Source: the human T2T-CHM13v2.0 reference genome, Homo sapiens. From it: a stretch of DNA of 64,000 bases. Position numbers and translations under genes: made by a program. Shown piece by piece: positions 2,809 to 57,175 of the stretch. The notes beneath the pieces were generated by a model. That model made no database searches. It was not told the origin of the DNA and was given only the letters and a program-made list of their open reading frames with translations. The stretch's first letter is position 1. Every line of letters begins with the position of its first letter. The stretch is taken from NCBI GenBank assembly GCA_009914755.4, contig CP068257.2, positions 40,704,001 through 40,768,000 of the forward strand, written 5' to 3'.

Positions 2809-4278
2809 GCCTTCCCACTGCTCCTAGTACCCAGAGGCCAGGCCAGGTCGTGGTGCAGGGCTGAGTTCCAGGAGGGTGCAAACACCCCAGGAACAGACTG
2901 CTGCCCCTCCGGCCCTCATGACCTGCTGGGGAAGGACCCCCGCAAGGAGCTTCTGCAGGTGCTGTGGTCTCCACCTGCTGCACTCAAAATTGCCTGGAGT
3001 GGGGAGAATATCAATGCCTGGGCCCCGCCCTGACAGGTGGTTCTGTCGCCTGTGATTCTTCTCTGCGGCCAGCACCGAGAACCCTGCTGGGGTTTGCTTC
3101 CGTTTAACTAGTGAATGTTGACTGAGCTCCTACTGCCTACACCCAGGGTTTAGGGCTGGGGAAGGAATAACAAAGGTGACACATTCTTGTCCTTGAAGAG
3201 TCCCCCCGCAAAGGGAGACGGGATCATGTCAGAGTTAAGATGGTGAAGCCAAGACTAGGTTCTGTGCTGCCTGACCTTGGGCAAGTCAGGTCCCATCTGT
3301 ACCTCAGTTTCCCTACATGTCACAGGGTGCTCACCCCACAGGACAGCATGAAGTGGTGCTGCACAGCCCAGCCAGGTGCCTGGGACACACACTGACCACC
3401 TGCCGGGTGTGCTGGATCAACCATGATGGCAGAGGAGAGGATTCCTGGTCCCGGCTCTGGTAGGAGCAAAGGCTGTGGCAAGGGGGCCAGAGCTGGGTCC
3501 TGTCAGGTGGAGACGCACAGGCTTCTCAGAGAAGGGGGATTTGGGCTGCACCTCTGGAGAGGTCAATGGGGAGGCCCGTGTGTGTCCCCTCTCTCTGTTC
3601 TAGGAGCCCCCTCCCCAGGAGCCCTGGGCTCTGTACAGGAACAGAGGATGGCATGGGAGAGCCCAACCTGCCTTCCAGAGCCTGCATTCCCACAGCCTTC
3701 CCCAGCCACCCTATTCCCCTGAGGGAGTTCCAGTTCCAGAGAAAAAGCAGAGCTGTTGTCAGAGCTGTAGGCCGTGCGGTAGTGGGCATCGGGCCCAACC
3801 CAGACAGGTGGCTCCCCTGGGCAACCCAAGACCTGGGGGTGAGCAGGACTGGCTCTAAAGGAGCCTCTCCCTTTCCTCCTTGGGAGCCGCATCCCGCATC
3901 CCTGCAGCAGCCTCGTCAGCTGTGTGCGGTGTGGCGGTGTGGGCCGTCCCAGGAGCCCTGCAAATCCCTCCCGCCCTGGGCCTTGTGCAGGGGCTCCTGG
4001 ATGGATCCAAGAAGAAGACAGTCTGCTCCCCCATGCCGGGGCTGCAACCTTTCACCTCCCGGATGCGTGGTCATTGTCACGTGCATATAACAAGCACAAG
4101 CTGAGCATGGGTCCCAGGTCAGGCACTCGGCCTGCAGATGTGGGAGCCCCAGAACATCAGGCAGAGCCCGTGCCCTCAGAGCTCACAGGCTGGTGAGGAG
4201 GAACAAGCCTTCAAGCATGAATTGTGGTGCAGTATGATTAGAGCTGGCAGAGTGGGGTGAAATCTGACTAGGTCTTGA

Positions 4279-4807
<529 letters not shown>

Positions 4808-6289
4808 TAACACTGCCTACTTTGCACTAACTCACTGCCCCACAGAAAACTCAGAGTTGATGTGGCACATGCAGGTTATAGGGTCTGCATCACCGCTCAG
4901 TTTTCTGGTATTGTCACTCGATTACTCAAGCAGCAGACAGTCCGAGGGAGGAAGGAAGTAGGAAGTTGTGCTAATCAGCACCCGTGGGTGGCCCAGGGCC
5001 GCACACCTCCCAGGAGCACCCTGCTGCCCAGCTGTCTCTCGGTCTGCAGCTGCCATGGGTGCCGCCCCTCACTCTGCACAGAACTTCCTCCTGCCTCCCT
5101 GAGAGAGGCTCGAAGACCCTTCCTGAGTCATCACGACCTGAATGTAGGTGCTTTGGGGAGGCAAACGCAGTGACCCATTCAAGGATGCTTCTGTCTTGAC
5201 ACATAGTCCACTGAGGACAAATGGGGGTGGGGACCAGGAGCAGAGCAAATGCCACCACCACGTGTAAAACAGGAAGGTCAGAACGCAGAGCAGCCCAGTG
5301 GGCTCAGAAGGGGGCATGGGCTCCAGGGTTCCCTTGTGCAGCTCAAGGAGCACTTGGTGCTGTTTCAGCCACTCGTCTTGAGAAGCAGCCACAGAGCCCT
5401 CTAAACCCAGAGCGTCTGTGGGTTTGGGACCGTTGCATCAGCCCCACGTGCAAGGGACAGGAAAGGTTCCCAGAAAGGCATGGACTGACGGCCAGAAATA
5501 ATGCAGCTGACCGCCGTGGACAGGAGCACCTCACCCGCAGCCCCACCTGCTGGACCCAGATGGGCCCTTCCCCAGCAGCCAGACCTGCTCTACCAGGAAG
5601 CAGAGCCTGAGAGGAGGGTGCAAGGCCCTCACCCAGGCACCGGAGGCACGGTGTCACCTCACCTTCCGTGTGATGCACTCCAGTCTGCAGTCCTGCACTG
5701 AGCCAGTCCTGGGCCGACAGCTGGGAGCCCCTCTTGTACCAGACCTGGGCTGATGGCATGCAGTTCTCAGAGACAGTCCCTGAATGCATTGGTGCAGGCA
5801 GCCAAGTTCAACAGCCCCAGACAGCACAGGGGACCCCATGGGGAGCCAGGTCCTCCCACCACCAGACTGGGAAGCCGCAGCCGCTCTCGGCCTTCGGACT
5901 TGGCTCATACCTGTGAGTCAAGCCTTTATCACCAAGTGATTCCCAAGTACATTGAGTTGAAGGGTGTCCTCCCCAGAATTCACATCCCTCCTGAAACCTC
6001 GGAATGTAACCTTATTTGGAAATAAAGTTTTTGCAGTTGTAATTAAACTAAGATAAGGTCTAGATCAAGCTTGTTCAATGTGAGGTCTGTCTGCCGCATG
6101 CAACCCAGGATGGCTTTGAAGACGGCCCTACACAAATCCGTAAACTTTCTTAAAATGTTATGAGATTTTTTTTGTGATTTTTTTTTTGGCTCATCAACTA
6201 TCTTTAGTGTTAGTGTATTTCACGTGTGGCCCAAGACAATTCTTCTTCTTCTGGTGTGACCCAGGGAAGCCAGAAGACTGGACACCCTC

Positions 6290-19234: not shown

Positions 19235-19891
<657 letters not shown>

Positions 19892-31982: not shown

Positions 31983-32921
31983 CTAGAAGTTTAAATGCAA
32001 GATGGTTGGTAAGGGAACCCCAGAAATGGGAGTGCCTAGGCTGCGAAGCTGGGGTGGGCGTGCATCACTTTGCCCAGGAGCTTCCTACTGAAGAAGGAGC
32101 TCCTTTCCCGGGGAGGGGGTGTAAAGGGACCAAATCTTCCCACCCCAGGCCAGAGTTTCCTCTGTGGGGCGCATTCTCCCCAGACAAGTGAACATTTTCT
32201 AGGTGGACCTTTAGGTCACATAAAAAAAATCACTCGGAAAATCCTGAACATGAAATATTTCGCTCTTTGGAGTGCTTTGATATCCTAACAAAAGGAAAAG
32301 AAAAGGCATCCTTCAAGGGCCAGTAGCTCTTTCCCCATTTTCCTGGATCTGCTTGGTCTTTTTTTACCTCGCCACACTCCGAGTCAGGAACACACTATCA
32401 CTAAGCGGGTGGGAGAAGTGGACCCGTTCACCTCTGCCGGCGGGACCCTCCCGGGACTGCCCGGAGCAGGACGTTGTGGATGAGGTTTGTCATTCGGGGT
32501 CATGTGGGGGAGAACGGGGAAGCCACGGGAGAAGGGGCCAGGTCTGCTTGAGTTGGGCCCTCTCTGGTACCCAGCACAGTGCAAGACACTCAGTAGCCTC
32601 CAAATGCAGATGGGCTTGCAATAAAACAGGCAACGCCTCTGAACGTTGCAACACCTGGGGAGGCAACAGGGATGAGCCGCTGTTTCTAGAACCATCACAG
32701 ATGACGCAGTGGCAATGCTGGAGGCTATAAACTTATTGAATAGACGCTGTCTTTGCCAAGAACATTCTGGAATTGCCTTCAGAATCCCATAGGAGGCAGG
32801 GGCCCTGGCCTCGATGGCACTGAGGCAGCGAGGCAGCTCCCCTCCCTGCACCCCACCTCTACGGACGGAGGAGGAATCATGGTGTCCGGGAACCAGACAG
32901 AGAGTCCCACAGCGACGTTAC

Positions 32922-33068
32922 CTTCCACAGACTTCGGGAAGAAGCACCAGGGCACTTCAAAGATGAAGTTGGAGAAGCAGCACTTCCGAGAGGCGCATTC
33001 CTCGGGGCTGATGCCCGGGTAGCCACAGTTTCTTCGGTCTGAGACCTCCATGACGCACTGATCCGACT
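32922..33068 (-). CDS. TFF2: TFF2 exon 3: second trefoil (P) domain
   Basis: Translates to (E)SDQCVMEVSDRRNCGYPGISPEECASRKCCFSNFIFEVPWCFFPKSVE. Acceptor ...tcccatggcag|AG, donor G|gtaacg. 147 nt. Confidence 0.95.
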
Positions 33069-33206
33069 CTGCCATGGGACAGGCACAGCACCGAGACCCA
33101 GTCAGGCCTGCTGTGCCCTGGAAAGCTCCACCCCTTCCTCCTCTGAGAGCAGCGCTGATTTGCAGCCTCCGTGGATCATGAGGTGCTGCCTGGGGCAGCA
33201 TCCCCC

Positions 33207-33286
33207 GGGACGGCCTCCCCCGGGGACTGTGGAAGTGTCGGCCCCTGGGACCGCCTCCCCCGGGGACTGTGGAAGTGTCGGCCCCA
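33207..33286. repeat. 40-bp tandem duplication (gggacSgcctcccccggggactgtggaagtgtcggccccW, two copies) in TFF2 intron 2
   Basis: Two near-identical adjacent copies read directly. Confidence 0.9.
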
Positions 33287-33992
33287 GCGACGCTTGGCTG
33301 GCCTGTCCTCCGCGAAGGTGGGGCCCATGTGGGGTGGTCACAGTCAGAAGCTCTGGAGTCCCCCGCCTTGGGGAAATCATTTTGCCTCTCGGGACTCAGT
33401 GTTCTCAGTAAATGGGGTGGTCCCCCGGGCCAAGATGAGAAAAGGTTTGTGGGCACCTTGGTAAGATGGAAAGCGTTTGGACATGGTATTGATTCCCAAA
33501 GACACTGCCATTCAGTGGGCGCTCGTGAACAATCCACCATCTGCCTGGTTTCCCTGCGGGGCCCAGCAAGCCTCCCAGCAACAATCTTGGGGATGAATCC
33601 TCCTTCTCCAGAGGACGTGCCTGGTTCCACGCACACAGGTGCACGACACACACACAACCTTCCTTTGAGCACTCGTCGGCGTTACAACTTGGGTCCTGAT
33701 CCCGTGCACTAACATAAAACTCACTCCCAAAGAACCCTAGAAGGCTTCACTTCCTTCCCTAACATTTGAGGGCTGTCAGCCCTTATGTTACTGCTGTCCT
33801 ATTAAATACCTTCATTTCCCCATGGAAGCTTCTTCAGAAGTCACACTTCAAAAACTAGAGGAGACCTACTATATATATATATATTTTTTTCTCAACTAAA
33901 GTAAAACTGATGGCTCCACACACACATGTCTGTTGAAAGAACTAACAGTGTAGAAACAGGGTAGGTGGGAAATTTTCATCTCACTGTTGGCT

Positions 33993-35215
33993 GACCTGGG
34001 TTACCTCTAGACTAACAGTCCAGGCTGGCCCCAGGCTAACCAACCTGGGCTACCTCTAGACTAGCAGTCCAGACTAGTCCCAGACTAACCAATCTGGGCT
34101 ACCTCTAGACTAACAGTCCAGGCTAGTCCCAGACTAACCAACCTGGGCTACCTCTAGACTAACAGTCCAGACTAGTCCCAGACTAACCAACCTAACCAAC
34201 CTGGGCTACCTCTAGACTAACAGTCCAGGCTAGTACCAGACTAAACAACCTGGGCTACCTCTAGACTAGCAGTCCAGGCTAGTCTAAGACTAACCAACAT
34301 GGGCTAGCCCCAGACTAACCAACCTGGGCTAGCCCTAGACTACCTCTAGACTAGCAGTCCTCTAGGCTACCTCTAGACTAGCAGTCCAGGCTAGTCCCAG
34401 ACTAACCAACCTGGGCTAGCTCCAGACTAAACAACCTGGGCTAGCTCCAGACTAACAAACCTGGGCTAGCCCCAGACTAACCAACCTGGGCTACTAGCCT
34501 CAGACTAACCAACCTGGGCTAGCTCCAGACTAACCAACCTGGGCTAGCTCCGATTAACCAACCTGGGCTAGCCCTAGACTAACCAGCCTACGCTAGCCCT
34601 AGACTAACCAACCTGGGCTAGCTCCAGACTAACAAACCTAGGCTACTAGCCCCAGACTAACCAGCCTATGCTAGCCCTAGACTAACCAACTTGGGCTAGC
34701 TCCAGACTAACCAACCTAGGCTACTAGCCCCAGACTAATCAACCTGTGCTAGCTCCAAACTAACTAACCTGGGCTAGCCCTAGACTAACTAGCCTACACT
34801 AGCCCTAGACTAACCAACCTGGGCTAGCCCCAGACTAACCAACCTGGGCTACTAGCCCCAGACTAACCAACCTGGGCTAGCTCCAGACTAACCAACCTGG
34901 GCTAGCCCCAGACTAACCAGCCTACGCTAGCCCTAGACTAACCAACCTGGGCTAGCTCCAGGCTAACCAACCTGGGCTACTAGCCCCAGACTAACCAACC
35001 TGCGCTAGCTCCAAACTAACCAACCTGGGCTAGCCTTAGACTAACTAGCCTACACTAGCCCTAGACTAACCAACCTGGGCTAGCCCCAGACTAACCAACC
35101 TGGGCTAGCCCCAGACTAACCAACCTGGGCTAGCTCTAGACTAACCAACCTGGGCTAGCCCCAGACTAACCAACCGGGGCTAGCTCGAGACTAACCCACC
35201 CAGGCTAACCCTAGA
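33993..35215. repeat. TFF2: Minisatellite/VNTR in TFF2 intron 2: 25-bp unit (ctagactaaccaacctgggctagcc and variants), ~49 copies, ~1.2 kb
   Basis: Obvious periodic repetition. The 5' half has a ~50-bp higher-order unit (ctagactaacagtccaggctagtcccagactaaccaacctgggctacct) and the 3' half has simple 25-mers. Matches the 25-bp TFF2 intron-2 VNTR described in the literature. Confidence 0.95.
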
Positions 35216-35316
35216 CTAGCAACTGGGCCTCCTCCGGCCCCTGCTCTGGGCTCCGCCTGTGAAGCTGGGTCCTGGGTTGCCAGCTGCTGGCCCAGGAAGA
35301 TTCCCTGGAAGATTAC

Positions 35317-35466
35317 CTTGCTTTGGGAGGGGGTGGAAACACCAGGGGACCCCAGTGACACTGGAGTCGAAACAGCATCCATTGTCAAAACACTGGTCAC
35401 TGGTGATTCCAGGGAAGCCGCAGTTCGTCCTGTTATGGGGGCTCAGCCTGGAGCACTGGCAGGGGG
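35317..35466 (-). CDS. TFF2: TFF2 exon 2: first trefoil (P) domain
   Basis: Translates to (S)[49 protein letters not shown]. Acceptor tctttccacag|CC, donor CAAG|gtaatc. 150 nt. Confidence 0.95.
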
Positions 35467-35681: not shown

Positions 35682-35990
35682 GCCAGGCATGGTGGCTCAT
35701 ACCTATAATCCCAGCACTTTAGGAAGCCGAGGCGGGCAGATTGCTTGAGCTCAGGAGTTCAAGACCATCCTGGGCAACATGTCGAAACCCCATCTCTACA
35801 AACAATACAAAAAAAAAAATTGGCCGGGCATGATGGTCCACAACTGTGGTTTCAGCTACTCAGGCGGCTGAGGTGGGAGGATCACTTGAGCCTGGGAGGC
35901 AGAGGTTGCAGTGAGCCAAGATCACACCACTGCACTCCTGCCTGGGCGGCAAAGCCAGATCCTGTCTCGGAAAAAAACAAAAACAAAACC
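35682..35990 (+). mobile_element. Alu (sense) in TFF2 intron 1
   Basis: gccaggcatggtggctcatacctataatcccagcactttaggaagccgaggcgggcagattgc ... poly-A. Confidence 0.9.
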
Positions 35991-36314: not shown

Positions 36315-36393
36315 AGGGTTTCTCACTCCCCGCCAGGGCACATAGCCCCAGGACGAGGAGCGCTGCCAGGAGCTGGGCGTCTCGCCGTCCCAT
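36315..36393 (-). CDS. TFF2: TFF2 exon 1 CDS (signal peptide MGRRDAQLLAALLVLGLCALAGSEKP, plus 1 nt)
   Basis: ATG at 36393-36391. Donor T|gtaagt at 36314-36309. Confidence 0.92.
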
Positions 36394-37329: not shown

Positions 37330-37850
37330 ATCCTTGGTCCACCACGGGGCTGTCCTCAGGGTCTGGAGAGCAGGCCCCATACTCCAGGCCCCCATCCTCC
37401 AGGCCCTCGTCCCCCAGGCTCCATCCTCCAGGCCCCCATTCTCCAGGGCTCCATCCTCTAGGCCCCTGTCCTCCAGGCCCCCATCCTCTAGGCCCTCATC
37501 CTCCAGGCTCCATCCTCCAGGCTCCATCCTCCAGGTTTCATCCTTCAGGCCATCATCCTCCAGGCCCCCGTCCTCCAGGCCCCCATCCTCCAGGCCCCAT
37601 CCTCCAGGCCCCCATCTTTCAGGCCCCTGTCCTCCAGGCTCTTGTCCTCCAGGCCCTCATCCTCCAGGCCCCTGCTCCTCCAGACCCTCATCCTCCAGAC
37701 CCTCATCCTCCAGGCCCCCATCTTTCAGGCCCCTGTCCTCCAGGCCCTCTTCCTCCAGGCCCTCATCCTCCAGGCCCCTGTTCCTCCAGACCCTCGTCCT
37801 CCAGACCCTCATTCTCCAGGCCCCCGTCCTCCAGGCTCCATCCTCCAGGG
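37330..37850. repeat. Imperfect 15-bp minisatellite (consensus ~tcctccaggccccca), ~35 copies, ~0.9 kb upstream of the TFF2 start codon
   Basis: Visible periodicity. Produces the artefactual Pro/Ser-rich ORF 37292..37996 (SSRPPSSRP...). Confidence 0.9.
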
Positions 37851-40099
37851 CTCCTCTGGGTCCGGGTCAAGTACCTCCAGGCTCTCTGCTGACTGTTCAC
37901 CACTGGGCAACCACAGGGACTCGATCCATGAAAACTCTGGCAAGGTCAGTTTCCTTGTTCTACATCCCTGTCACTTTAGTCACCATCATGATATAAGTGA
38001 CTGAGTCATTGTTTTCTCTCATATTCCCACCCACCTCTCCTCTCTGCTTCCTCCCCATCAACTCGACTTCCCACCGCTCACTGCAGCCCCTTCAGGATTC
38101 CTGCTGCGACCACCTGACCCATGCAAAAGAGACCACTTCTCAGCCTCTCTCACTCTCCTGGCCCTGGCGGAAGCCTGTGTTGTCATAGGCATGCTTCCCT
38201 GGAATCCTGCTCAGGCCCCCACGCAGGGACACTGAGTGCCCACAGAGTTGGGAAACCATTACACGAGATGGGATGTCTGCAATAGAGTGGCATCGCTAGT
38301 TGAAAGTGGAGCTGTTCACAACCTCCACAACTGTACTTGGTGGCCACGTCCCCATCACATGGGCTCAGACTGGGGGCTGGACATTGACTTTGAGCCCCAA
38401 GTCTTCACCCTCATGCAAAAACCATCCTCCTTGGAGATGCAGGCTGGGAAGGGCGCCATGTCCGGAGTCCCTGCCCTGCTGTCATCTGCCGACCTTTGTG
38501 CAGCCTGTCCCTTTCGTTAAGAATTTCAGCACTGAGTTCACTGTGTTCCTTGTCATGCTAAGACTTGGCCACATCCCAGGCATCTTCAACATGGCGGTCG
38601 ATGTTTCATCAAAATTCACAGTCGCTCAGATTTTATTTTTCCTCATCTCTAGGAACTTCCATCTCCACTCCACTTCTGCCACTTCTGCCACCCTCCCATG
38701 ACCACACTCAGAACTTGAGCTCCACCTCTGAAAGAGGGTATGCAAATGTCCTTTCTGCCCAGGATGTCCTAAGCTCCTAACATTCTCCCTTTGTCTGAAT
38801 CCTAAAGCCCTCCAATCCCCTATTCCCCTGTGAGCCCCCTCCTGTCTATCCTTCCTTCCTGCTTCTCCAGCCTGATTTCCACAGTGCTCACTTCACCCAC
38901 CGTCTTCCTCACTGCTGTTTCCCACTGTCTCTGTGCCTATGCCATCTGCCTAGCATGGCCGACACCTACCTTGAATTGTTGCCACTCTCAACGCATGATC
39001 TCAGCGCCATCCAGGCACTCAGGGCTGGCGCCCTCCTCTTTCTGTCTATCCTTCTCCACCCCTGCTCACTTCCATTTTGCACACTTTGGGGATGATACTT
39101 TCCATCAGTTCACATAGAAAGTCAACAAATGGGAACCACCTCAGCTATCACCCATGTGGACTTCCGCTTTTGACTATGGAGTCACTGGTACCAGGCTAGC
39201 CTCCCACCATGAGTAACTCTAAAACTACATAAGTAACAGTCTGCAGATGCTGAGCAGCAGGCAGTGCCAGACAGCGATCCCTGAGAGAAGGGAAACAATA
39301 GGGGGAGTCCCATGGCTGCCTTGGTTTCCTGGAGACGCTCTCCAGACTACAGCACAGGGAGGGGAACCCAAATAGCACTGAAGTCCCATCGGGCTGAGGA
39401 GACAGAGGTCAGAATTGGAAGCTTCTGAGGCAGGCGGGTTATCAAGGTAAGAGAAGGAAGCTCCAGAAATATAAAAGTGTGTCCTTTGAGCTTTTCATCA
39501 AATACTATGCTGTTCGTGCCCACAAGGCCAGGCTAAGTAGCCCCTGGGGACAGAACAATCACTGGGGAGGCTAAACTGAACAACTAGTGTAGGGTTCGTG
39601 GGGCTGGAAAGCATTTGAGCTCAGAGCAGCCAGAGGTGTTGACCACTTCAAGCATTCAATAAAGGCCATGCCGTAAAAAGAAGGCTGATCTTTCTAGAGG
39701 AAAGCTACTCAAAATCCATTCGAACAAAACTTTAAAACAAGTCTTGCAGGAATCAAGTTAACCTGCAAGTAAATTAACTGCTTGTATTAGTTCACTCAGG
39801 TTGCTGTAACAAAATACTACACATTGTGTAGCTTAACCAACAGAAGTGTACTTTCTCACAATTCTGGTGCCCAGAAGTCCAAGATAGGGTGTCAGCACAT
39901 CTGGTTTCTACTGAGGCCTCTTTCTGCTTGCAGATGGCTTTTTTTCCCCATATCTCACATGGTCTTTCCTCTGTGCACGCACATCTCTGGCGACTCTTTT
40001 CTTATAAGGACACCAGTCAAATTGAACCAGGGCCCACCCTAAGAGCCTCATTTTAACCTGATTACCCCTTTTAAGACACTGTCTCCAAATGTAGTCACA

Positions 40100-45637: not shown

Positions 45638-47439
45638 ACTGAGTGGAGGCCCAGGGAAACCACAGGAAGGCAGTGACCCACCTTGTTAACTGGCTCTGCC
45701 TACAGTCCTTGGTGAGAGCGGTTGTTCCTGGCCATCGTGGCTGGGCCATAGGCTCACTGCTCTGTGGTAGATGGAAGATATGGGCCTTGGTAATATACTG
45801 AAATGCCACAGGAAACCAAACCAGAAGTGATTTAACCCACAAGCACACTTAGGTTTATTTAACATGATGTCTCAAGGTGGGTGGGGGGCTCAAATCAGTA
45901 GCTCAGGGTTATTAAGGCTCTAGGTCTTGGGCCTTACCTCATTATTACATAATGGCTGCCTGCAACACCACATCACACCCACCTTCCACAACACCCAAAG
46001 GCAGGCTGCAAGGGCTGGCCTAGGAAGCCAGAGGGCGCTCTTCATTCATCAAGGGAGAAGCCTGCCCCACCTTCAAGGAGATGCCCCCTATGTCTCATGG
46101 GCCACATAGAATTGCACGGCCACTTCTGGCTAAAAGAGGGGCTGGGAAAGTGAATTCTTTCTCCCCCTTCCTTCGTAGAGTGCAAGTTAGGTAAGAAAGA
46201 ACGGATGGTGGACAGCCAGGAAACAGTCAGCTACGAGATGTTGTGTGGAAAGCCCACCTTTCTGACACTGGAGAACTGTGGGAAGAACGGACAGGCCACA
46301 CACCAGCTGGGCTCTGAGAACCCCCAGCTTCTGCTCCACAGTGAGCCAGCAGGAATCCAAAGGGCATGGGCAGACCCCAGGGGCTCCTTCACCCCACCCA
46401 GGGGTAGAGAGGGCAAGACGGAGTAGAGCGAGGTAAGAGACTGAGCAATGCGTTCCCAAAGACTGTGACTGACAGAAGCTGTGCAAATTATTATGACAAA
46501 CTGAATTTTAAGAGGAATTGGACTAAATAAAGTTAGCTCATTTTTACCTGTAATTAGCAGACAGAGAGTGTAAGATCAGACATACCATAGATGGAAAAGA
46601 AAAGCTAAAACTTCCTTGCACATCTGAGAGGTAAGAGGAGGTGTCTGTGGCCCCCCTGACACATACGTGACATATGTATTATTACGGCTCATGTGTGTGC
46701 TGCTGTGTGCAGGGGGCAGGGGGCTTCCCGTTCCTGATGGTTCTTCTTGGTGGGTGTCTCCCGGCCTCTCAGGCCTCTTTATCTGCTGAACGTGGTAGCC
46801 AAGGGTTTGGGAATGATTTGCCAGACTGGTTAATGTGGAAAGAGCTGGCCCCGCTCAGTTCTGCACCTCCCTCTTCCTCCCTGGAACCGTCTGGCTGCAG
46901 AGAGCAGGAGCTTTCCAGAGCTCCCGGGGGATCCCATCTCCAGTATAACTGTGCAACGTGTGCCCAGCACAAGAGCACCAGATGGAGGGACAGGTGGGAG
47001 GAGGAGGAACCCAGGGTGCATTTAGCTTGGGGCTTGCTGAGCTGAGGTCCCCAGAGCAAGGACGACTAGGTTGGGGGGACACCCTCTCCCAATCCTTGCC
47101 AAGCTACAGAGGGGCCAGTGGGAATAAAGTGACATTTTGGCTTCTGTATCCCTCCTCTGCTGTTCTATTTTCTAGTTCGTTCAGATCTGAGGTTGGGGAG
47201 GGGTTTTCCTGGAGGGGTCAGTCCATGCCACCCTCTGCAATTTTTATTACACATGCTTTCAGACATTCTGCTACAGGTTTCATCTCCTACGCCAATTTCT
47301 ATTTGGGAAAGCAAATAAACGGAAAGCTAACTTGTGTCACTTGGTCGCTGGGGCATCCGCAGTGAGTAGTTAAGAAATGCCAGGGGAGTCGGTGTCCATT
47401 TTCATGCCTGGACAAGAGTGCGTCTTGGACTTGCGTCCT

Positions 47440-47580
47440 GCTGCACACCCCACCGTCCCGCTGCACACCCCACCGTCCTACTGCACACCCCACTGTCCTA
47501 CTGTACACCCCACCGTCCTACTGCACACCCCACTGTCCTACTGCACACCCCACTGTCCTACTGTACACCCCACCATCCCT
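47440..47580. repeat. 20-bp tandem repeat (ctgcacaccccaccgtccta), ~7 copies, ~150 bp downstream of the TFF1 poly(A) site
   Basis: Read directly. Produces the repetitive ORFs 47377..47661 and 47418..47732. Confidence 0.9.
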
Positions 47581-56229: not shown

Positions 56230-57175
56230 AAGGCGTCCTTGGTGGTACACCCTCCAGACACCATCCACTCCCTCCGGACACCGCTCACACCCTCCAGCCA
56301 CCGCCAACTCCTTCTGGCCACCAATCACACCCTCCGGTCACTGCTCAGTCCCTCCAGTCAGGGATCACTCCCTCCAACGACCACTCACACCCTCCAGCCA
56401 CTGCTCACACACTACAGCCACCACTCCAACCCTCCGTTCAGGTCTTACATCCTGTGGCCACTGCTCATTCCCTCCAGTCACCACCCACACCCTCCAGCCA
56501 CTGCCCACACCCTCCAGCCACCGCTCAAACCCTCCGTCCAGGTCCCATATCTGATCACTGCTCACTCCCTCCGGCCACAGCCCACACCCTTCAGCCACCA
56601 CTCACACCCTCTGGCCACCACTCACTCCCTCAAGCCACCGCTTACTCCCTCTGACCACCCCTCACACCATCTGGCCATTGCTCACACCTTCCTGCCACTG
56701 GCCACTCCCTCCAGCCAGAGCTCACTCCCTCCGGCCACACCCTTCGGGTGCCACTCAAAACCTCCGGCCATGGCTCACACCGTCCAGCCACCGCTCATAC
56801 CATCCAGTCACCACTTATGCTCTCTGGCCACCGTGCACTCCCTCTGACCACCACTCACACTCTCCGGCCACTGCTCACACACTACTGCCACCACTGAGAC
56901 CCTCCATCCAGGTCTCACACCCTCCAGCCACCACTCACTTCCTCCGGACACCACTCACACACTGTGGCCACCACTCAGACCCTCCATCCAGGTCTCACAC
57001 CCTCCGGCCACTGCTAACTCCCTCTGTACAGGGCTCACTCCCTCCGGCCACCACTCACACCCTCTGGCCACCACTCACTCCCTCCGGCCACCGCTCACAC
57101 CCTCCGGCCACCGCTCACTCCCTCCGGCCACTGCTCACTCCCTCCGGCCACCGCTCACACCCACTACTTTGCCTG
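56230..57175. repeat. Minisatellite, ~0.95 kb, 15-30-bp degenerate units resolving to a 20-bp unit (cctccggccaccgctcacWc) at the 3' end; lies between the TMPRSS3 3' end and TFF1
   Basis: Periodic ccctccRgccaccRctcacWc read directly. Produces the artefactual ORFs 56239..56847 (202 aa) and 56678..57193 (171 aa), rich in HSLRPLLTPSGH-type repeats. Confidence 0.9.

What the first reader, a model, noticed from the sequence alone, without database searches (positions are those of the whole stretch)
33993..35215. Large 25-bp VNTR (~49 units) fills most of TFF2 intron 2, with a nested ~50-bp higher-order periodicity
This is the longest and most regular tandem array in the window. It sits between the two trefoil-domain exons of TFF2. 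Its 5' half alternates two unit types (ctagactaacagtccaggctagtcccag / actaaccaacctgggctacct) while the 3' half is a simple 25-mer array, which suggests two phases of expansion. A 25-bp polymorphic VNTR in TFF2 intron 2 is in the literature. The copy number here is one allele, and length alleles could affect splicing efficiency between exons 2 and 3.
Basis: partly seen in the sequence, partly recalled or inferred. Interest (0 to 1): 0.6.

Follow-up and report, generated by a model that had tools for sequence, protein, structure and literature searches.

The report
Known 25-bp minisatellite in TFF2 intron 2
This is a real 1.2-kb tandem array of about 49 units of roughly 25 bp inside intron 2 of the human stomach gene TFF2; it grew in place from a short motif during primate evolution, shows no sign of function, and I believe it has been described before.

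Summary
Window 33994-35218 is a 1225-bp tandem array of about 49 units of 25 bp. It lies in TFF2 intron 2 (33069-35316, minus strand), between the two trefoil-domain exons, and takes up 54.5% of the intron.

It missed that the other block is not a simple 25-mer array: it carries a 5-unit (128-bp) higher-order repeat.

Orthologous TFF2 loci show the same array at the same intronic position in every primate genus sampled, with about 8 to 125 copies. A rodent has one proto-unit there and rabbit has two; lynx and elephant have none.

The 49-bp dimer is found only in catarrhines. The 128-bp repeat is shared by human and orangutan. This supports stepwise expansion.

Human and orangutan arrays are colinear and 96.6% identical, the same as neighbouring non-coding DNA. 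Only two whole-unit indels separate them.

No splice-site consensus, G-quadruplex, PRDM9 motif, ORF, Rfam family or exonisation was found.

Best reading: an old, slowly evolving, neutral intronic minisatellite. I recall it from the literature (Kayademir et al. 1998) but could not retrieve that paper. Human length polymorphism and any splicing effect could not be tested. Interest is low.

The parts
33994..35218 (-). Whole minisatellite: about 49 units of ~25 bp, 1225 bp. Sense-strand consensus TTAGTCTGGGGCTAGCCCAGGTTGG.
   Evidence: TRF; unit decomposition; pattern search (32 matches, none expected by chance).
34389..35218 (-). Exon-2-proximal block: 25-bp units with a 28-bp variant (TAG insertion), arranged as a 5-unit, 128-bp higher-order repeat with a weaker 256-bp level.
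   Evidence: TRF period 25 x 32.6 and period 128; autocorrelation peaks at lags 25, 128 and 256; permutation test lag 5 z=2.7 and lag 10 z=2.5; the same repeat in orangutan, lag 5 z=3.6.
34302..34388 (-). Irregular junction between the two blocks, with truncated units of 16-24 bp and a 27-bp duplication.
   Evidence: (period 27 x 2.0 at 34335-34387).
33994..34301 (-). Exon-3-proximal block: two unit types alternate (sense TTAGTCTAGAGGTAGCCCAGGTTGG, 25 bp, and TTAGTCTGGGACTAGCCTGGACTG, 24 bp), giving a 49-bp dimer period.
   Evidence: Autocorrelation 0.70 at lag 49; TRF period 49 x 6.5 on the sense strand; lag-2 z=3.5; these dimer units are present only in catarrhines.
34500..34729 (-). About 230 bp (9 units) present in human but absent from the orangutan array. 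Which lineage changed is unresolved, and placement within the repeat is approximate.
   Evidence: Pairwise alignment. The best paralogous segment in the human array is only 208/230 identical, so this is not a recent human duplication.
33069..35316 (-). TFF2 intron 2 (2248 bp, GT..AG). The array begins 98 nt after the 5' splice site and ends 925 nt before the 3' splice site.
35317..35466 (-). TFF2 exon 2 (first trefoil domain).
   Evidence: tblastn; boundaries.
32922..33068 (-). TFF2 exon 3 (second trefoil domain).
   Evidence: tblastn; boundaries.

Best explanation
This is an old, slowly evolving and most probably neutral intronic minisatellite. A ~25-bp motif about 100 nt downstream of TFF2 exon 2 was already present in the common ancestor of primates, rodents and rabbits. 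It was amplified in place along the primate lineage. The array then gained and lost whole units through replication slippage or unequal exchange, in steps of one unit (25 bp), a two-unit block (49 bp, catarrhines) and a five-unit block (128 bp, great apes). It is transcribed as part of the TFF2 pre-mRNA and removed with intron 2.

Shown: position, structure, orthology, whole-unit step changes and a neutral substitution rate. Inferred: the slippage or unequal-exchange mechanism, a possible contribution from the near-palindromic core CTGGGGCTAGCCCAG, which could stabilise slipped-strand hairpins, and the absence of function.
For: 1. Real array in TFF2 intron 2.

2. Same position in all nine other primate genera sampled. 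Arrays start 91-114 nt into intron 2. Copy numbers by TRF: Homo ~49, Pongo ~41, gibbons ~49 and ~31, Macaca 22-25, Mandrillus ~16, Sapajus ~40, Plecturocebus ~74, Carlito ~8-9, Lemur ~125.

3. Growth in place, not an insertion. Peromyscus has one proto-unit and rabbit two at the orthologous spot; lynx and elephant have none recognisable. The 5' flank and first unit align across primates, rodent and rabbit.

4. Whole-unit steps. Macaque assemblies that are 99% identical differ by 25, 25 and 49 bp within the array. Human and orangutan differ by 230 and 25 bp.

5. Neutral rate. Human-orangutan identity is 96.58% in the array and 96.20% across 6662 other non-coding positions of the locus (Fisher p=0.65). 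The two trefoil exons are 99.3% identical.

6. Nothing functional was found. There is no PRDM9 13-mer, canonical G-quadruplex, consensus 5' splice site, stop-free stretch above 25 aa, or poly(A) or TATA motif. No Rfam family reaches its gathering score. The longer predicted TFF2 isoforms do not use the array.

7. Two adjacent units fold as single-stranded DNA into a hairpin of about -12 kcal/mol, z=-3.4 to -3.8.
Against: An array has persisted at this position in every primate lineage sampled, probably for more than 60 million years (the timescale comes from general knowledge of primate divergence). That is long for a neutral minisatellite, so some constraint on having an array or a long intron here is not ruled out.

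The unit consensus is highly conserved among anthropoids, although homogenisation within arrays could produce that by itself.

No expression, chromatin or population data could be consulted, so the lack of function is inferred from sequence alone.

Some assemblies, such as Mandrillus and Carlito, are older builds that may have collapsed the repeat.
Confidence: 0.85

Rival explanations
1. The array modulates splicing. It could tune splicing of exons 2 and 3 through intron length, through G-runs in the sense strand acting as intronic splicing enhancers, or through about 24 decoy 5' splice-site-like CAG|GTTGGT motifs. Length alleles would then change TFF2 mRNA yield.
For: The sense strand carries 39 G-runs of 3 or more and 24 AGGTTGGT motifs. 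The array begins only 98 nt from the exon-2 5' splice site, a distance conserved across primates at 91-114 nt. The array RNA is predicted to be strongly structured (256 nt, -134 kcal/mol, z=-7.8).
Against: The G-run positions (8 and 10 of the unit) are the most variable, both within arrays and between species: GGGG in apes, GGAG in Old World monkeys, capuchin and tarsier, AGAG in lemur. No motif matches the AGGTRAGT consensus. Copy number ranges from 8 to 125 across primates while the trefoil-exon structure stays intact, and mammals with no array splice the same exons. No predicted isoform uses array sequence. The strong fold follows directly from a tandem repeat with a palindromic core. Substitution rate is neutral.
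Confidence: 0.06
2. The array is a transcriptional regulatory or chromatin element. Repeated units would act as a multimerised binding platform within the TFF gene cluster, and copy number would set TFF2 or TFF1 expression.
For: An array has persisted at a fixed site throughout primates, and the unit consensus is conserved, including the GCTAGC core found even in the rodent and rabbit proto-units. Intronic VNTRs elsewhere are known to act as length-dependent cis regulators (general knowledge).
Against: The substitution rate equals that of flanking non-coding DNA. Copy number varies 15-fold among primates, and non-primates lack the array. I recognised no known motif in the unit by eye, and the regex scans found none of those tested. 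CpG is strongly depleted (observed/expected 0.07), so this is not a CpG island. No chromatin data were available.
Confidence: 0.05
3. The array is a hypervariable, recombination-hotspot-type minisatellite or the internal repeat of a transposable element.
For: GC content is 54%, the array is tandem, and it lies in a distal chromosome-arm gene cluster (the location is from general knowledge).
Against: There is no PRDM9 13-mer and no chi-like core. Human and orangutan arrays are colinear unit by unit, and three orangutan assemblies have identical length. The flanks and proto-unit are orthologous in rodent and rabbit, so there was no insertion. The unit occurs nowhere else in the 64-kb window.
Confidence: 0.02

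Closest known systems
The 25-bp tandem repeat in human TFF2 intron 2 (Kayademir et al. 1998, Eur J Hum Genet 6:121-128; cited from memory, not retrieved here)
   Same: Same gene, same intron and same 25-bp unit. The copy number here (~49) falls within the range I recall being reported (high 40s to low 50s). From its title, that paper also dealt with mammalian evolution of the repeat.
   Different: As far as I recall, the following were not described there: the 5-unit, 128-bp higher-order repeat; the unit-by-unit colinearity and neutral divergence between human and orangutan; and the copy numbers from modern assemblies (lemur ~125, titi ~74, tarsier ~8). I could not check this.
Classical non-coding minisatellites / VNTRs with 10-100-bp units, such as the INS 5' VNTR
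   Same: Head-to-tail array of short units, non-coding, changing length in whole-unit steps, with interspersed variant units.
   Different: It is much more stable than hypervariable minisatellites. It has no recombination-hotspot motif. No phenotype or expression association is known to me or was found in the library.
Higher-order repeat organisation, as in alpha-satellite arrays
   Same: Diverged monomers are arranged in multi-unit blocks (2-mer of 49 bp, 5-mer of 128 bp) that were themselves amplified.
   Different: The scale is tiny (1.2 kb). The array is intronic and euchromatic, is unrelated to centromere function, and its higher-order copies are only about 85% alike.

Membership tests
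Minisatellite (tandem array of 10-100-bp units) | Head-to-tail copies of a 10-100-bp unit, well beyond chance | tested here: met
   TRF period 25 x 32.6 and period 128 x 9.6; about 49 units; 32 matches against 0 expected.
VNTR in the strict sense (variable number within a species) | Copy-number polymorphism among individuals of one species | not testable with these tools
   No second human haplotype could be reached. Indirect evidence: three Macaca assemblies of different species differ by 25- and 49-bp steps, while three Pongo assemblies have identical length.
Published TFF2 intron-2 25-bp repeat | Located in intron 2 of human TFF2, 25-bp unit, about 50 copies | tested here: met
   Location, unit and copy number are established. 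The match to the publication rests on memory because the paper could not be retrieved.
Hypervariable recombination-associated minisatellite | PRDM9 or chi-like core motif, and rapid turnover that erases orthology of internal structure between species | tested here: not met
   No such motifs. The human and orangutan arrays are colinear at 96.6% identity with two indels.
Transposable-element-derived repeat | The insertion is absent from the orthologous empty site in outgroups, and dispersed copies exist elsewhere | tested here: not met
   The proto-unit is present at the orthologous site in Peromyscus (1 copy) and rabbit (2 copies), with alignable flanks. There are no other copies in the window. 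No genome-wide search was possible.
Higher-order repeat array | Unit similarity peaks at a multi-unit lag above what random unit order gives | tested here: met
   Lag 2 z=3.5 (0 of 1000) in the distal block. Lag 5 z=2.7 (8 of 1000) and lag 10 z=2.5 in human. Lag 5 z=3.6 and lag 10 z=3.9 in orangutan.
G-run intronic splicing enhancer cluster | G-triplets or G-quadruplets conserved across orthologous introns | tested here: not met
   Unit positions 8 and 10, which make the G-run, are the least conserved. The consensus is GGAG or AGAG in most non-ape primates.
Structured non-coding RNA or miRNA host | Match to a curated RNA family at its gathering score | tested here: not met
   Only sub-threshold miRNA-like hits of 21-26 bits against gathering scores of 65-94.

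The most novel reading that the evidence does not exclude
The array may be a selectively retained element specific to primates. An array has been kept about 100 nt downstream of TFF2 exon 2 in every primate lineage sampled, with lineage-specific re-expansions (lemur 125 units, titi 74). One explanation would be that multimerised units, or the structured intronic RNA they encode, set TFF2 transcription or co-transcriptional splicing in gastric mucous cells. Copy number would then act as a tunable dial on the output of a mucosal-protection gene.
Probability: 0.05. Interest if true: 0.5.

Novelty: already known. Interest (0 to 1): 0.12.

Why it matters
It matters little as a discovery. To my recollection the repeat was described in 1998, and nothing here suggests a function. 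It has some practical value. The array is a usable length marker inside the TFF cluster on 21q22.3, it is a trap for short-read assembly and variant calling in TFF2, and it is a tidy small-scale example of stepwise minisatellite growth. The stages can be roughly dated across the primate tree: one motif, then two copies, then a 25-bp array, then a 49-bp dimer array, then a 128-bp pentamer array. If array length were ever linked to TFF2 expression, it would be relevant to gastric mucosal protection and to metaplasia research.

Tried and rejected
- Literature. Ten full-text searches on TFF2 with VNTR, tandem repeat, minisatellite, Kayademir and title phrases, plus a guessed DOI, failed to find the original description or any association or eQTL study of this repeat. 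The 'TFF2 + VNTR' hits concern mucin, IL1RN or INS VNTRs.
- Other human alleles. The protein collection returned no human, chimpanzee or usable gorilla locus. Two metagenome scans for human-contaminant contigs found nothing.
- Exonisation of the array. Rejected. The 172- and 188-aa monkey isoforms read through into intron 3 or start upstream of exon 2. The gorilla model uses an acceptor near window 33308, about 690 bp beyond the array.
- Recent human-specific duplication as the source of the 230-bp human excess over orangutan. Rejected. The best internal paralogue is only 208/230 identical. Which lineage changed remains open.
- ncRNA or miRNA, G-quadruplex, PRDM9 hotspot motif and coding potential. 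All negative.
- The strongly negative RNA folding z-score was not treated as evidence of function, because any tandem repeat with a palindromic core gives one.

Full report
**Observation**

It reports period 25 x 32.6 copies with 82% matches over 34389-35218 (score 1070). The best-scoring description of the whole array is period 128 x 9.6 copies (score 1230).

A wrap-around alignment to the 25-mer consensus splits the 1225 bp into 48 units of 22-30 bp, one 16-bp internal fragment and two terminal partial units, so about 49 units. The 25-mer, allowing up to 3 mismatches, occurs 32 times in the window, all inside the array; 100 dinucleotide-preserving shuffles gave none. By length and TRF score this is the largest array in the window. 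It is not the most regular: (TCTT)36 at 19376 reaches 93% matches and a 20-mer array at 47434 reaches 91%.

**Context**

tblastn with the three human trefoil proteins (sequences recalled from memory, confirmed by 96-100% matches) shows that the window is the human TFF3-TFF2-TFF1 cluster, with all three genes on the minus strand.

The TFF2 coding exons are 36393-36315, 35466-35317, 33068-32922 and 31982-31969, all with canonical GT..AG boundaries. Intron 2 is 35316-33069, 2248 bp. The array takes up 54.5% of it. It begins 98 nt after the exon-2 5' splice site and ends 925 nt before exon 3.

**Internal structure**

- **Exon-3-proximal block (33994-34301).** Two unit types alternate: sense TTAGTCTAGAGGTAGCCCAGGTTGG (25 bp) and TTAGTCTGGGACTAGCCTGGACTG (24 bp). 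This gives a 49-bp period, with autocorrelation 0.70 at lag 49, TRF period 49 x 6.5 copies, and unit similarity at lag 2 of z=3.5 with 0 of 1000 permutations reaching it.
- **Irregular junction (34302-34388).**
- **Exon-2-proximal block (34389-35218).** This is not a simple 25-mer array. Every fifth unit carries a 3-bp TAG insertion, making it 28 bp, and unit variants recur with a 5-unit, 128-bp period. Autocorrelation shows peaks at 128 and 256. Lag 5 gives z=2.7 (8 of 1000) and lag 10 gives z=2.5 (7 of 1000).

**Comparative evidence**

A protein search with TFF2 returned mammalian orthologues, and cluster listing added more primates. Their genomic loci, introns included, were fetched. Intron 2 was delimited in each, and TRF was run on every intron.

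Every primate sampled has a 25-bp array starting 91-114 nt into intron 2:

| Species or assembly | Array size |
|---|---|
| Homo | ~49 units |
| Pongo (three assemblies, two species) | ~41 units |
| Gibbons (two assemblies) | ~49 and ~31 units |
| Macaca (three assemblies) | 22-25 units |
| Mandrillus | ~16 units |
| Sapajus | ~40 units |
| Plecturocebus | ~74 units |
| Carlito | ~8-9 units, degenerate |
| Lemur catta | ~125 units, 94% matches |

Outside primates:

| Species | Orthologous site in intron 2 |
|---|---|
| Peromyscus | One proto-unit, TTTGTCTAGAGCTAGCCCAAGTTTA |
| Rabbit | Two adjacent copies |
| Lynx and elephant | Nothing recognisable |

The 5' flank and the first unit align across primates, rodent and rabbit. 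The array therefore grew in place from a motif that was already there, not from an inserted element.

The dimer units of the 49-bp block are present in all catarrhines and absent from New World monkeys, tarsier and lemur. The 28-bp units occur in human, orangutan and one gibbon, and the 128-bp period occurs in both human and orangutan.

**Tempo and constraint**

Human and orangutan intron 2 align colinearly straight through the array. Only two indels of 3 bp or more separate them: 230 bp extra in human (about window 34500-34729) and 25 bp extra in orangutan. The 230-bp segment is only 208/230 identical to its best internal paralogue, so it is not a recent human duplication, and which lineage changed is unresolved.

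The three orangutan assemblies have no length differences. The macaque assemblies, which are 99% identical, differ by 25, 25 and 49 bp within the array. These are whole monomer or dimer steps, as expected from slippage or unequal exchange.

Substitution divergence between human and orangutan gives 96.58% identity in the array and 96.20% over 6662 other non-coding positions of the locus (Fisher p=0.65). The two trefoil exons are 99.3% identical. The array therefore evolves at the local neutral rate and is much more stable than a hypervariable minisatellite.

**Search for function**

- The array has no PRDM9 13-mer, chi-like core, canonical G-quadruplex, AGGTRAGT 5' splice-site consensus, poly(A) or TATA signal. 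It has no stop-free stretch above 25 codons, and CpG is depleted (observed/expected 0.07).
- The sense strand does carry 39 G-runs and 24 AGGTTGGT motifs. However, the G-run positions (8 and 10 of the unit) are the most variable within arrays, and the consensus there differs between lineages: GGGG in apes and titi; GGAG in Old World monkeys, capuchin and tarsier; AGAG in lemur. This argues against a conserved splicing-enhancer role.
- No Rfam family reaches its gathering score.
- Longer predicted TFF2 isoforms in monkeys and gorilla do not use array sequence.
- The array RNA is predicted to fold strongly (z=-7.8). Two adjacent units fold as single-stranded DNA into a hairpin of about -12 kcal/mol. 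Both follow from the near-palindromic core CTGGGGCTAGCCCAG in each unit. I read this as a plausible aid to slipped-strand mispairing (inference), not as evidence of function.

**Comparison with what is known**

From memory, this is the repeat described by Kayademir et al. 1998 (Eur J Hum Genet 6:121-128, 'A novel 25 bp tandem repeat within the human trefoil peptide gene TFF2 in 21q22.3: polymorphism and mammalian evolution'). I recall the reported human range as the high 40s to low 50s of repeats. I could not retrieve the paper, or any paper citing it for this repeat, in the library provided. The identification and the claim of human polymorphism therefore remain unverified here.

No human population data or second human haplotype was reachable.

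**Verdict**

The locus and the stepwise expansion hold. Human polymorphism is untested. A splicing effect has no support.

The best explanation (confidence about 0.85) is an old, slowly evolving, neutral intronic minisatellite that is already in the literature. The details added here are the pentamer higher-order repeat, the neutral colinear divergence between human and orangutan, and the range from 1 copy to 125 across rodent, rabbit and primates. These are incremental. Interest is low.

Noticed in passing
window 33202-33285 (TFF2 intron 2, 134 nt upstream of exon 3): A second, 40-bp tandem repeat (2.1 copies, 95% matches). It is present in anthropoid orthologues with 2-6 copies, and two macaque assemblies differ there by exactly 40 bp. 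A predicted gorilla TFF2 isoform (XP_055229812.1, P0086) reads through it from an alternative acceptor near window 33308.
   Followed up: partly
window 37371-37880 (about 1 kb upstream of the TFF2 start codon at 36393): A 15-bp array (CAGGCCCCCATCCTC, about 32 copies, with 91- and 106-bp higher-order periods). The orthologous drill locus has about 45 copies (L001 1321-1992), so there is a second conserved minisatellite in the TFF2 5' flank.
   Followed up: partly
L012 about 2966-6073 (Lemur catta TFF2 intron 2): The lemur array has about 125 units at 94-96% identity and is dominated by four unit variants (34, 33, 30 and 10 copies). This points to a large, recent, lineage-specific expansion that brings intron 2 to 4136 bp.
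   Followed up: partly
window 56247-57162: A 916-bp array with 20-, 40- and 60-bp periods (ACACCCTCCGGCCACCGCTC-like, 67-71% matches) on the far side of TFF1. It is the second-longest array in the window.
   Followed up: no
window 32782-32922 (start of TFF2 intron 3): Several Old World monkey TFF2 'isoform X1' or 'hypothetical protein' models (171-188 aa) result from reading through the exon-3 5' splice site into intron 3. The homologous reading frame is also open in human, with 83% identity over 47 aa.
   Followed up: partly
window 35682-35970 (TFF2 intron 1): Sub-threshold Metazoa_SRP, mir-1268 and mir-3135 hits on both strands, the typical signature of an Alu element.
   Followed up: no
protein collection: Human and chimpanzee TFF2 proteins were absent from the homologue list and from the 90% clusters, and the gorilla entry had no contig. 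No African-ape locus could therefore be compared.
   Followed up: no
window 19376-19522 and 47434-47578: Two short, very regular arrays: (TCTT)36 at 93% matches, and a 20-bp repeat x 7.2 at 91% matches about 1.1 kb downstream of TFF1 exon 2.
   Followed up: no
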